Assembly (NCBI RefSeq): GCF_055900595.2
Contig: NZ_CM148325.1
DNA length: 64,000 bases
Strand: one strand, 5' to 3'
Of the stretch, positions 39,313 through 45,344 are shown in pieces. The translations under genes and the position numbers were made by a program. The stretch's first letter is position 1. Each line of letters starts with the position of its first letter. Under the pieces are notes generated by a model. That model was not told where the DNA came from, did no database searches, and saw only the letters and a list, made by a program, of their open reading frames with translations.

Positions 39313-39798
<486 letters not shown>

Positions 39799-42022: not shown

Positions 42023-43264
<1,242 letters not shown>

Positions 43265-43288
43265 TTACACGTTAATTAGTTTCGAATT

Positions 43289-43314
43289 AAAAAGGGCGCT
43301 TCGGCGCCCTTTTT
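43289..43314 (+). terminator. rho-independent terminator after tufA
   Basis: AAAAAGGGCGC-ttcg-GCGCCCTTTTT. Confidence 0.85.
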
Positions 43315-43391
43315 GCTGCCCGTAATTTGAGCTCGAAATATTTAGTCGTAATTTCACTCGCTGAACTATGGCGCAAATTAAACTGTGCTAT

Positions 43392-43413
43392 TGTAATCAT
43401 AACCATTCTCATT
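43392..43413 (+). promoter_or_regulatory. putative Fur-box-like element upstream of bfd
   Basis: TGTAATCATAACCATTCTCATT, AT-rich hexamer repeats resembling GATAATGATAATCATTATC, 33 nt before the bfd start. Confidence 0.35.
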
Positions 43414-43446
43414 TACACTTTGCGCAGAATTTGAACGGGAGCAATC

Positions 43447-43641
43447 ATGTACGTTTGTTTGTGTAATGGTGTAAGTGACAAAAAAATTCGCCAGGCAGTC
43501 CGTCAGTTTCATCCGCAATCTTTCCAACAATTGCGTAAGTTTATTCCTGTGGGAAATCAATGCGGTAAGTGCATTCGCGCCGCGCGCGAAGTGATGCAGG
43601 ACGAGTTGATGCAGATGCCAGAATTTAAAGAGATTGCCTGA
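43447..43641 (+). CDS. bfd: bacterioferritin-associated ferredoxin
   Basis: 64-aa ORF with [2Fe-2S] cysteines (CLCNGVSD ... NQCGKC). Confidence 0.85.
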   Translation: MYVCLCNGVSDKKIRQAVRQFHPQSFQQLRKFIPVGNQCGKCIRAAREVMQDELMQMPEFKEIA

Positions 43642-43713
43642 AGCCCACGCTTATTTTTTGACATCCCGCTAGCCCCATCTACGCTCTAATAGTGGAAGCG
43701 GAGGGACTATAAA

Positions 43714-44190
43714 ATGAAAGGTGATGTTAAAATCATAAATTATCTCAATAAACTATTGGGAAATGAGCTTGTCGCAATCAATCAGTATTTTCTCCATGCC
43801 CGGATGTTTAAAAACTGGGGCCTGATGCGTCTCAATGACGTCGAATACCATGAATCTATTGATGAGATGAAACACGCTGATAAATATATCGAGCGTATTT
43901 TGTTTTTAGAAGGAATCCCTAACTTACAGGATTTAGGCAAACTGGGGATTGGTGAAGATGTCGAGGAGATGCTGCAATCCGACCTGCGATTAGAACTGGA
44001 AGGCGCGAAGGATCTCCGTGAGGCTATCGCGTATGCCGACAGCGTTCATGACTATGTTAGCCGTGATATGATGATCGAGATCCTTGCCGATGAAGAAGGT
44101 CATATTGACTGGCTCGAAACTGAGCTGGATCTCATCGGTAAAATCGGTTTACAAAATTACCTGCAATCACAAATAAAAGTTAAAGATTAA
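43714..44190 (+). CDS. bfr: bacterioferritin
   Basis: 158-aa ORF, N-term [31 protein letters not shown]. Confidence 0.95.
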
Positions 44191-44654
44191 CGGCCTGCCA
44201 GCAAACTATCCCAGCCTACAACGAAACCCGCAGCCGCCAGAAATGGCCCAAACGGCAGCGGGTTTTTTAATGACTCTTTTCCTCTCATGAGCAGACCAAT
44301 AACTACGGCTCCGCAAGCGAATGAGGCAGCAAGGAAAACCAGTCGTGGCAAGAAGGTCCATGTATGCCAGGCACCAAGGGCGGCGAGAAACTTCACATCA
44401 CCATAGCCTAATCCTTCTTTATGACGCAGTATGCGATACCCCCAGTAAATGACAGCGAATGTGCCGTAACCAATAATCGCCCCCCATAACGCATCGGCTA
44501 AACCGTCAGGATTACAAACCTGATAGAACAAAAGACCTGACCAGAGTAACGGGCACGTAAATCTGTCAGGTAACAAGCCATGCTTTGCATCCCAGAAAAA
44601 AAGTAGGGCTGATAAACAAGCGTACAAAATCAGAAAGGGAAGGGTAGCGTCCAT
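44187..44654 (-). CDS. short-form prepilin (leader) peptidase, A24 family, HopD-like
   Basis: 155-aa polytopic ORF with [14 protein letters not shown] (GxGD catalytic aspartate motif); stop codon shares 3 nt with the bfr stop. Confidence 0.7.
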
Positions 44655-44827: not shown

Positions 44828-44855
44828 TTGCGTCAGGCTCAGATTTGCGTATAAT
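44828..44855 (+). promoter_or_regulatory. S10 operon promoter (-35 TTGCGT, 16-nt spacer, -10 TATAAT)
   Basis: Hexamers about 180 nt upstream of rpsJ, consistent with the known long S10 leader. Confidence 0.7.
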
Positions 44856-44861
44856 GCGCGG

Positions 44862-45344
<483 letters not shown>

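What the first reader, a model, noticed from the sequence alone, without database searches (positions are those of the whole stretch)
43265..43446. tufA and bfd are only about 180 bp apart: the chitinase gene (chiA) found here in K-12 is absent
The spacer holds just the tufA terminator and the bfd promoter region. As I recall, K-12 has a roughly 2.7-kb chiA gene between tufA and bfd. Together with the missing gsp cluster downstream, this locus has the compact layout.
Basis: partly seen in the sequence, partly recalled or inferred. Interest (0 to 1): 0.3.

Follow-up and report, generated by a model that had tools for sequence, protein, structure and literature searches.

The report
Ancestral compact tufA–bfd locus, no chiA
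This E. coli strain has the short, ancestral arrangement between the tufA and rpsJ genes, without the chitinase gene and secretion system that K-12 carries there; this is a common, already documented strain difference, and K-12 is the derived version.

Summary
The tufA stop codon ends at 43264 and the bfd ATG is at 43447, so the spacer is 182 bp. The order is bfd, bfr, a 155-aa prepilin peptidase gene (hopD), then rpsJ. No chiA or gsp gene occurs anywhere in the window.

The K-12 recollection is also correct: K-12 has tufA-chiA-bfd-bfr-gspO..C-gspAB-rpsJ. However, this is not a chiA-sized indel. Identity to K-12 (99.7–99.9%) stops just after the tufA terminator (43316) and resumes inside the S10 promoter (44849). 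Between those points, 1,532 bp here corresponds to 16,638 bp in K-12. The shared bfd-bfr genes are only about 78–81% identical, less than this window is to Salmonella (85%).

The compact form is the norm across Enterobacterales. In non-coli Escherichia, Salmonella and Citrobacter it diverges in step with the flanking genes, so it is most likely ancestral. The K-12 block is most likely a foreign replacement; its nearest relative found is in Superficieibacter.

Of 5,426 complete E. coli genomes, 2,250 are compact and 3,148 are long. Published work already reports that this secretion system (T2SSα) is absent from most phylogroup B1 strains.

The spacer holds a conserved bidirectional terminator and a conserved Fur-box bfd promoter. 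It may also encode a divergent small RNA like Salmonella STnc4000.

Verdict: ordinary and already known.

The parts
42080..43264 (+). tufA (EF-Tu, 394 aa), last gene of the str operon. It forms the left homology anchor.
   Evidence: NCBIfam TIGR00485, 794 bits. RefSeq annotation of the identical strain EC42405. 99.7% identical to K-12.
43260..43280 (+). Small AT-rich hairpin overlapping the tufA stop codon.
   Evidence: RNA fold of 43260-43330. 92% identical to Salmonella but variable in other genera.
43289..43314 (.). tufA intrinsic terminator, A5-GGGCGC-TTCG-GCGCCC-T5. It is symmetrical, so it could terminate transcription in both directions.
   Evidence: Fold energy -24.3 kcal/mol, z = -3.4. 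Conserved in 14 genera, with 99.4% of cells paired and two compensatory pairs. The tool's terminator scan missed it; my reading is that the A/T extension of the stem absorbs the T-run the scan looks for.
43316..43317 (.). Left haplotype breakpoint. Identity to K-12 of 99.7% ends at 43316.
   Evidence: blastn against the K-12 locus L001; alignment A4.
43317..43384 (.). Variable part of the spacer. On the minus strand it would be the body of a possible STnc4000-like RNA of about 100 nt, running from about 43389 to about 43286.
   Evidence: Only 54-59% identical to Salmonella and Citrobacter. Minus-strand -10-like TACAAT at 43395->43390. The terminator is usable on the minus strand. The minus-strand fold has z = -2.9, mostly due to the terminator. 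The Salmonella sRNA is described in PMC5001712. Expression here was not tested.
43385..43446 (+). Conserved bfd promoter and 5' leader block. Proposed -35 is TTGTAA (43391-43396). The Fur box lies at 43392-43410 (core 43397-43411, TCATAACCATTCTCA). Proposed -10 is TACACT (43414-43419). The Shine-Dalgarno sequence is GGGAG (43437-43441).
   Evidence: 94-95% identical to Salmonella and Citrobacter and nearly invariant in 14 genera. 14 of 19 matches to the Fur consensus; only 3 sites in the 64-kb window score this well. By my own count, 11 of 13 specified positions match the ChIP-exo motif TGAnAATnATTcTCA quoted in PMC10164565. bfd is Fur-repressed in K-12 (PMC4676285). The hexamers are my own reading; the promoter scan found nothing at its threshold.
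43447..43641 (+). bfd (bacterioferritin-associated ferredoxin, 64 aa), the 'mainstream Enterobacteriaceae' allele.
   Evidence: NF007803. 88% aa and 78% nt identity to K-12 Bfd; 85% nt to Salmonella; 94-96% to non-coli Escherichia. It shares a 90% cluster with Salmonella, Citrobacter, Lelliottia and Atlantibacter.
43714..44190 (+). bfr (bacterioferritin, 158 aa), the 'mainstream' allele.
   Evidence: TIGR00754. 88% aa and 81% nt identity to K-12 Bfr. 94-98% aa identity to Phytobacter, Pluralibacter, Raoultella and Citrobacter. Clusters with Salmonella, Klebsiella and Enterobacter.
44187..44654 (-). hopD: an orphan 155-aa A24 prepilin peptidase without the N-terminal extension. It is convergent with bfr, with a 4-bp overlap, and occupies the position that gspO holds in gsp-bearing loci.
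   Evidence: Pfam PF01478, 78.9 bits. 41% identical to K-12 GspO; both Asp motifs ([10 protein letters not shown] and GYGDVK) align with the corresponding GspO motifs. 66-68% identical to Salmonella HopD; members of the same 90%-identity cluster carry the source names E. marmotae and unclassified Escherichia.
44828..44855 (+). S10 (rpsJ) operon promoter, TTGCGT-N16-TATAAT. The right haplotype breakpoint (44848/44849) lies between the -35 and the -10.
   Evidence: Three-way alignment of the window, K-12 and Salmonella; coordinates. 99.9% identity to K-12 resumes at 44849. Calling this the S10 promoter is an inference from the conserved hexamers and from a leader length of about 172 nt that I recall from memory.
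45033..45344 (+). rpsJ (S10), first gene of the S10 operon. It forms the right homology anchor.
   Evidence: NF001861. 99.9% identical to K-12.

Best explanation
The window carries the ancestral, vertically inherited arrangement of the interval between the str operon (rpsL-rpsG-fusA-tufA) and the S10 operon. The order is tufA, a 182-bp spacer, bfd, bfr, hopD, then rpsJ.

The spacer works as follows. A strong, symmetrical intrinsic terminator ends str-operon transcription. After a roughly 70-bp unconstrained stretch comes a highly conserved bfd promoter. A Fur box lies between and over its -35 and -10 elements, so Fe2+-Fur represses bfd when iron is plentiful. The same Fur-controlled region probably also fires leftwards, giving a short minus-strand RNA that ends at the same terminator, as reported for STnc4000 in Salmonella.

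The K-12 arrangement is not this locus plus a chiA insertion. It is an alternative 16.6-kb cassette (chiA, its own bfd-bfr alleles, gspO-C and gspAB) of foreign Enterobacteriaceae origin. It replaced the native 1.5-kb segment by homologous recombination, with the nearly invariant flanking translation operons serving as the homology arms. Both forms now segregate in E. coli at about 41% compact and 58% long among complete genomes, largely along phylogroup lines.

Shown: gene order, breakpoints, divergence values, distribution, and conservation of the terminator and promoter. Inferred: the direction of the event, the recombination mechanism, Fur binding at this exact site, and the minus-strand RNA.
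For: Layout and identities.

Breakpoints: identity to K-12 is 99.7% up to 43316 and 99.9% from 44849. Only bfd-bfr align in between, at 77-81%. The upstream 20 kb of the window is 97.4% identical to K-12.

The compact form is the norm. Where both genes are visible on a contig, the tufA-bfd spacer is 125-270 bp in about 45 of 57 other Enterobacterales species. A spacer of 2.7 kb or more was seen in four named species (three of them with a chiA-like gene detected) plus one E. coli-like MAG. Salmonella has a 184-bp spacer.

The compact cassette diverges in step with the species. An unclassified Escherichia is 94-96% identical in the cassette, against 92-93% in flanking tusBCD. A genome whose HopD sequence NCBI also names from E. 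marmotae is 86-94% against 85-92%. Salmonella and Citrobacter are 85-87% in bfd-bfr and 68-72% in hopD.

Neighbour-joining bootstrap on bfd+bfr: window + Citrobacter + Salmonella 81%; K-12 + Superficieibacter (which also has tufA-chiA-bfd-bfr-gsp) 90%; K-12 + window 0%.

The K-12-type Bfr has no relative above about 90% aa identity outside Escherichia/Shigella among 5.8 billion proteins. The window-type Bfr shares a 90% cluster with Salmonella, Klebsiella, Kosakonia and Enterobacter.

At the right junction, the window's S10 promoter spacer and upstream sequence match Salmonella, and K-12's do not.

Distribution: 2,250 compact and 3,148 long of 5,426 genomes. [quoted passage not shown]

Spacer function: terminator; promoter and Fur box; STnc4000.
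Against: E. albertii and E. fergusonii could not be sampled, so the state at the root of the genus is inferred from two non-coli Escherichia genomes only. Their species names come from the protein's source label or from divergence, not from the assembly records.

The long cassette differs by 2-3% between K-12 and other long-type genomes such as H33-H37 and L042. It is therefore old within E. coli, and no actual donor was found. The best candidate is Superficieibacter, at only 67-83% nt identity.

The tree is neighbour-joining on 648 nt, and third codon positions are close to saturation.

The K-12 cassette has ordinary GC content of about 50% and no integrase or tRNA, so there is no compositional sign of foreign origin.

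The promoter scan did not call the bfd promoter, and the Fur box has 5 mismatches to the 19-bp consensus.

The body of the putative minus-strand RNA is no more conserved than neutral sequence, and a Salmonella reporter study did not confirm induction of STnc4000 in the iron-limited host-cell cytosol (PMC8432900).
Confidence: 0.8

Rival explanations
1. Simple loss: this lineage descended from a K-12-like ancestor and deleted chiA, and separately the gsp cluster, leaving the remaining genes otherwise unchanged.
For: The gene content looks like K-12 minus chiA and minus gsp. Partial gsp deletions do occur in long-type E. coli: L090 lacks gspL-gspD.
Against: The retained genes are not the same alleles. 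bfd is 78% and bfr 81% identical to K-12, against 97-99.9% for the flanks. hopD is 41% identical to GspO and is not a truncated copy. The whole 1.5 kb, including non-coding parts and the S10 promoter spacer, is collinear with Salmonella, Citrobacter and other Escherichia.
Confidence: 0.03
2. Reverse direction: the long chiA-gsp cassette is native to Escherichia coli, and the compact segment was imported into phylogroups B1/E and Shigella from a related species by recombination.
For: The long form is the majority, at 58%, and occurs in phylogroup B2, which I recall as early-branching (PMC10011798). Its diversity within E. coli (2-3%) is as large as typical between-phylogroup divergence, so it is old in the species. 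One K-12-type Bfr variant carries the label 'MULTISPECIES [Escherichia]'.
Against: The compact cassette in two non-coli Escherichia genomes diverges from the window by the same amount as the flanking tusBCD genes. It sits with Citrobacter and Salmonella, where the species tree would place Escherichia. A donor would therefore have to be Escherichia itself. The K-12-type bfd-bfr alleles lie outside that clade, with Superficieibacter (90% bootstrap), and have no close relatives elsewhere.
Confidence: 0.12
3. chiA and the gsp cluster are two independent island insertions on either side of fast-evolving bfd-bfr genes, so the divergence reflects relaxed or diversifying selection rather than a single replaced block.
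For: In other genera the two parts occur separately. C. braakii, C. amalonaticus S646, Chimaeribacter and Rahnella have gsp without chiA. In Citrobacter, the bfd-bfr genes linked to gsp still cluster with Citrobacter. A 12-bp direct repeat flanks chiA in K-12.
Against: Within E. coli, the counts for the two layouts leave only about 28 genomes unclassified. A pan-genome study found identical frequencies for bfd, bfr, chiA and all gsp genes, which indicates complete linkage (PMC11390585). Third-codon-position differences of 43% between the two E. coli alleles are as high as between genera, so divergence time rather than selection is the better explanation. The 12-bp repeat is marginal (3-6 of 200 shuffles reach it) and is not seen in other chiA loci.
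Confidence: 0.05

Closest known systems
E. coli T2SSα (gspC-O, gspAB) plus chiA accessory locus, as in K-12 and in phylogroups A and B2
   Same: It occupies the same chromosomal interval, between tufA and rpsJ, with bfd-bfr in the middle. The window is the documented 'T2SSα-negative' state typical of phylogroup B1 (PMC10011798; PMC3707838). O157:H7 and O111:H8 genomes have the same compact layout.
   Different: The window has none of the T2SSα genes or chiA. It carries different bfd-bfr alleles (78-81% nt identity) and an orphan hopD in place of gspO (41% aa identity).
Salmonella enterica tufA-bfd-bfr-hopD-rpsJ locus
   Same: The gene order is identical. The spacer is 184 bp against 182 bp here. 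The 4-bp convergent overlap of bfr and hopD is the same. The bfd promoter and leader block (43385-43446) is 95% identical (59 of 62), and the terminator is the same.
   Different: Identity is 85% in bfd-bfr, 68% in hopD and about 54% in the variable part of the spacer. The minus-strand T-run after the terminator is weaker in Salmonella.
STnc4000, the Fur-repressed sRNA transcribed divergently from bfd in Salmonella Typhimurium (PMC5001712)
   Same: The spacer and promoter block are homologous, a Fur box overlaps a minus-strand -10-like hexamer, and a terminator is available on the minus strand.
   Different: The RNA body is poorly conserved (54%). There is no expression data for E. coli and no Rfam family. 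The only Rfam match is a sub-threshold hit over the terminator.
Bidirectional Fur-regulated promoters (fepA-fes, fepD-ybdA, fepB-entC)
   Same: One Fur box sits between back-to-back promoter elements. This comparison is drawn in PMC5001712.
   Different: Here one arm would give only a short non-coding RNA, and Fur binding at this site has not been shown for a compact-type E. coli.

Membership tests
E. coli T2SSα/chiA-positive haplotype (K-12 type) | chiA (a roughly 2.7-kb GH18/CBM5 chitinase gene) between tufA and bfd | tested here: not met
   The spacer is 182 bp. No ChiA match occurs anywhere in the window. K-12 has chiA there.
E. coli T2SSα/chiA-positive haplotype (K-12 type) | gspO-gspC and gspAB between bfr and rpsJ | tested here: not met
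   Only a 155-aa A24 peptidase lies between bfr and rpsJ. There are no GspM, L, E, D or A matches.
E. coli T2SSα/chiA-positive haplotype (K-12 type) | K-12-type bfd-bfr alleles | tested here: not met
   78-81% nt and 88% aa identity, falling in different 90% clusters.
Compact Enterobacteriaceae tufA-bfd-bfr-hopD-rpsJ locus | Gene order with a tufA-bfd spacer of about 125-270 bp, collinear with Salmonella, Citrobacter and other Escherichia | tested here: met
Intrinsic (Rho-independent) terminator | GC-rich stem-loop followed by a U-run, maintained by compensatory changes | tested here: met
   GGGCGC-TTCG-GCGCCC followed by T5. 99.4% paired in 14 genera with 2 compensatory pairs. Termination activity itself was not tested.
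Fur-repressed promoter | A Fur box overlapping the core promoter and conserved among relatives | tested here: met
   14 of 19 matches to the consensus, one of 3 sites this good in 64 kb. By my count, 11 of 13 positions of the ChIP-exo motif quoted. Nearly invariant in 14 genera.
Fur-repressed promoter | Fur binding and iron-dependent repression | not testable with these tools
   Shown for K-12 bfd, which has a diverged promoter (61% identical), in PMC4676285, and stated for Salmonella bfd in PMC5001712.
STnc4000 sRNA | Located in the tufA-bfd spacer, divergent from bfd, with a Fur box over the -10 | tested here: inconclusive
   The promoter block is 95% identical to Salmonella (59 of 62), a minus-strand TACAAT is present, and the terminator is bidirectional. 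The published coordinates of STnc4000 were not available to me.
STnc4000 sRNA | Conserved RNA sequence or structure | tested here: not met
   The body is 54% identical to Salmonella, and there is no Rfam family match.
Classical genomic island (for the K-12 cassette) | Integrase, tRNA target, flanking direct repeats and atypical GC content | tested here: not met
   No integrase or tRNA is annotated. GC content is about 50%. The only flanking repeat is a marginal 12-mer around chiA. The ends coincide with the ends of conserved operons, which fits homologous replacement.

The most novel reading that the evidence does not exclude
The bfd-bfr iron-storage genes of the reference strain K-12, and of about 58% of E. 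coli, are xenologs. They arrived as part of a 16.6-kb chiA-bfd-bfr-gsp cassette that replaced the native segment by recombination within the str terminator and the S10 promoter. As a result, two non-orthologous versions of 'core' genes, and two versions of the S10 promoter's upstream half, segregate in the species. The native version also retains a Fur-controlled divergent sRNA (STnc4000-like) that the K-12 version lacks.
Probability: 0.35. Interest if true: 0.35.

Novelty: already known. Interest (0 to 1): 0.17.

Why it matters
The practical value is in annotation and interpretation. The lack of chiA and T2SSα at this site is a normal lineage marker, typical of phylogroup B1 and also seen here in O157:H7 and O111:H8 genomes. 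It is not a deletion event in this strain.

One point deserves wider notice. Because the two cassettes carry bfd-bfr alleles that differ by about 20%, pan-genome software splits these 'core' genes into two groups. They then appear as accessory genes in perfect linkage with chiA and gsp. A mastitis pan-genome association study reported bfd and bfr as fitness-associated at exactly the same frequencies as all the gsp genes (PMC11390585). This linkage explains that result without any role for iron storage.

The locus is also a clean example of cassette exchange anchored in ultra-conserved translation operons, with one breakpoint inside the S10 promoter.

Tried and rejected
- The consensus promoter/terminator scan found neither the tufA terminator nor a bfd promoter in the spacer. 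The terminator was then established by folding, conservation and pair counts. The promoter hexamers remain my own reading.
- A Fur consensus search with up to 3 mismatches found nothing. A scan allowing 5 mismatches found the site.
- The Rfam search at E<=1 gave only a sub-threshold Atu_C8 hit over the terminator, which I treat as chance.
- The genome-contig scan returned no E. coli, Salmonella, E. albertii or E. fergusonii records. Salmonella and two non-coli Escherichia were reached instead through HopD homologues and exact-protein look-ups.
- HopD clusters at 80-90% identity (P0010, P0020, P0003) turned out to be E. coli with frameshifts or alternative start codons, not other species.
- P0242, labelled 'MULTISPECIES [Escherichia]', gave only E. 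coli-like long loci.
- The 12-bp direct repeat flanking chiA, considered as a target-site duplication, is marginal and is not repeated in other chiA loci.
- GC content gave no sign of foreign origin for the K-12 cassette.
- Small ORFs in the spacer lie in the variable stretch or overlap the terminator or promoter blocks, and I did not pursue them.
- Literature searches for 'T2SS alpha' as a phrase, and for hopD, found nothing useful.

Full report
**Observation**

The window is Escherichia coli. Positions 42700-44200 are 100% identical to strain EC42405 and 98-100% identical to 2,250 complete E. coli genomes. EF-Tu is encoded at 42080-43264, Bfd at 43447-43641, Bfr at 43714-44190 and S10 at 45033-45344, all on the + strand. 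A 155-aa Peptidase_A24 protein is encoded at 44187-44654 on the minus strand. The tufA-bfd spacer is 43265-43446, which is 182 bp. No ChiA or Gsp structural protein is encoded anywhere in the 64 kb.

**The difference from K-12 is a whole block, not a chiA-sized indel**

blastn against the K-12 locus shows 99.7% identity up to window position 43316, two bases past the T-run of the tufA terminator. Identity of 99.9% resumes at 44849. Between those points, 1,532 bp in the window corresponds to 16,638 bp in K-12.

- Inside the block only bfd-bfr align, at 77-81% nucleotide and 88% amino-acid identity.
- The 155-aa peptidase is only 41% identical to K-12 GspO.
- For comparison, the 20 kb upstream of tufA is 97.4% identical to K-12.

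The right breakpoint lies inside what I take to be the S10 promoter. All three aligned sequences (window, K-12, Salmonella) keep TTGCGT (44828-44833) and TATAAT (44850-44855). The 16-bp spacer between those hexamers, and everything upstream, matches Salmonella in the window and is unrelated in K-12. The two layouts are therefore alternative cassettes bounded by the str operon terminator and the S10 promoter.

**Which form is ancestral**

A Bfr-based scan of one genome per species returned 80 loci across Enterobacterales.

- Where both tufA and bfd are on the contig, the spacer is 125-270 bp in about 45 of 57 species.
- A spacer of 2.7 kb or more was seen in four named species: Trabulsiella odontotermitis, Kosakonia oryziphila, Yokenella regensburgei and UBA5654. 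A Bfd look-up names the same contig Superficieibacter. An E. coli-like MAG also has a long spacer. A chiA-like gene was detected in all of these except Yokenella.
- Two further loci (Trabulsiella guamensis and an Enterobacter MAG) have chiA next to bfd, but tufA is off the contig.
- Salmonella has the same order as the window, with a 184-bp spacer.

The window's bfd-bfr is 85-89% identical to Citrobacter and 85% to Salmonella. That is closer than to K-12.

Two non-coli Escherichia genomes also have the compact layout. One carries a HopD sequence that NCBI also names from E. marmotae; the other carries one labelled 'unclassified Escherichia'. Their cassettes differ from the window by the same amount as the flanking tusBCD genes:

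| Genome | Cassette identity to window | Flanking tusBCD identity |
|---|---|---|
| HopD labelled E. marmotae (L091) | 86-94% | 85-92% |
| Unclassified Escherichia (L093) | 94-96% | 92-93% |

A neighbour-joining bootstrap on bfd+bfr gives the following:

- window + Citrobacter + Salmonella: 81%
- K-12 + Superficieibacter, which has the same tufA-chiA-bfd-bfr-gsp order: 90%
- K-12 + window as sisters: 0%

Among 5.8 billion proteins, the K-12-type Bfr has no relative above about 90% identity outside Escherichia/Shigella. The window-type Bfr shares a 90% cluster with Salmonella, Klebsiella, Kosakonia and Enterobacter.

I conclude, at about 0.8 confidence, that the compact form is the vertically inherited state and that the K-12 cassette is a xenologous replacement.

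Several caveats apply. The long cassette is itself old in E. coli, with 2-3% internal diversity. No close donor was found; Superficieibacter is only 67-83% identical. The K-12 cassette also has ordinary GC content and no integrase. That last point fits homologous replacement better than island integration.

**Distribution and prior knowledge**

Of 5,426 complete E. coli genomes, 2,250 have the compact layout and 3,148 the long one. [quoted passage not shown] It also treats T2SSα as a system present in only some strains (PMC3707838). The finding is therefore a known lineage polymorphism.

One useful by-product concerns a mastitis pan-genome study. It lists bfd and bfr as fitness-associated accessory genes at exactly the same frequencies as chiA and every gsp gene (0.812 against 0.375; PMC11390585). 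The divergent, fully linked alleles described here explain this as a clustering artefact.

**What the 182-bp spacer contains**

An alignment of 14 genera and segment identities divide the spacer into four parts.

1. A small hairpin over the tufA stop codon (43260-43280).
2. The terminator, A5-GGGCGC-TTCG-GCGCCC-T5 (43289-43314). It is 89-100% conserved. Across the 14 genera, 99.4% of cells are paired and two pairs show compensatory changes.
3. A roughly 70-bp stretch (43317-43384) that is only 54-59% identical to Salmonella and Citrobacter.
4. A 62-bp block (43385-43446) that is 94-95% identical to Salmonella and Citrobacter but only 61% identical to K-12's chiA-bfd spacer.

The fourth block holds my proposed -35 (TTGTAA) and -10 (TACACT), a GGGAG ribosome-binding site, and a Fur box at 43392-43410. 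The Fur box matches the consensus at 14 of 19 positions and is one of only three such sites in the window. By my count, its core TCATAACCATTCTCA matches 11 of 13 specified positions of the ChIP-exo Fur motif quoted in PMC10164565. bfd is Fur-repressed in K-12 (PMC4676285) and is described as Fur-regulated in Salmonella (PMC5001712).

In Salmonella the same spacer gives STnc4000, a Fur-repressed sRNA transcribed divergently from bfd. In the window, this block is 95% identical to Salmonella (59 of 62 positions). A minus-strand TACAAT lies at 43395->43390, and the symmetrical terminator would end a transcript of about 100 nt. However, the RNA body is not conserved. A reporter study did not confirm induction of STnc4000 in the iron-limited host-cell cytosol. 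There is also no Rfam family. I therefore rate a functional sRNA here at about 0.4.

**hopD**

The 155-aa protein is a bare A24 peptidase domain. Both aspartate motifs ([10 protein letters not shown] and GYGDVK) align with the corresponding GspO motifs. The gene is convergent with bfr and overlaps it by 4 bp, and the overlap is the same in Salmonella and the non-coli Escherichia loci. It occupies the position that gspO holds in gsp-bearing loci. It may therefore be the remnant of a much older gsp cluster; that idea is speculative and I did not test it.

**Verdict**

The interpretation needs two corrections: the unit of difference is the whole tufA-rpsJ cassette rather than chiA alone, and the compact form is the ancestral one. 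None of this is surprising to a specialist. Interest is low.

Noticed in passing
window 43447-44190 (bfd, bfr) versus L001 23719-24461: Two E. coli strains differ by about 20% in nucleotides and 12% in amino acids in the 'core' genes bfd and bfr. A published mastitis pan-genome study (PMC11390585) lists bfd and bfr as fitness-associated accessory genes at exactly the same frequencies as chiA and all gsp genes. This is most simply an artefact of allele splitting combined with linkage.
   Followed up: partly
window 44828-44855: The right haplotype breakpoint falls between the -35 and -10 of the presumed S10 operon promoter. E. coli strains therefore carry two versions of the promoter spacer and upstream region of a major ribosomal-protein operon. 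The window's version matches Salmonella.
   Followed up: partly
window 43286-43395, minus strand: Possible homologue of the Salmonella Fur-repressed sRNA STnc4000. The promoter block is 95% identical to Salmonella, a TACAAT -10 is present, and the tufA terminator can be used in both directions. The RNA body is not conserved.
   Followed up: partly
L001 20662-20673 and 23621-23632: An exact 12-bp direct repeat, TTATTCATATTT, flanks chiA in K-12 and in an E. coli-like MAG (L042). It is only marginally unexpected (3-6 of 200 shuffles reach it) and has no counterpart in the other chiA loci I checked.
   Followed up: yes
L090 7183-9379 (GCA_025402935.1, long-type E. coli): A long-type E. coli genome with an internal deletion that joins gspM directly to gspC, removing gspL through gspD. 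The secretion system decays in some carriers.
   Followed up: no
L006 versus L013 (Citrobacter amalonaticus); L012/L020 versus L033 (Kosakonia); L008/L009 versus L021 (Enterobacter): The same interval is dimorphic within other genera, and in one case between two records named as the same species: compact with hopD, or carrying a gsp cluster with or without chiA. The tufA-rpsJ interval therefore looks like a recurrent exchange site across Enterobacteriaceae.
   Followed up: partly
window 44187-44190: bfr and hopD are convergent and overlap by 4 bp at their stop codons. The same overlap is kept in Salmonella (L086) and in the non-coli Escherichia loci (L091, L093).
   Followed up: no
window 39328-39798 versus L001 16629-17096: rpsG here encodes the 156-aa form of S7. 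In the K-12 derivative, RefSeq flags rpsG as incomplete at the C-terminus. From memory, this fits the known longer S7 of K-12; I did not check it further.
   Followed up: no
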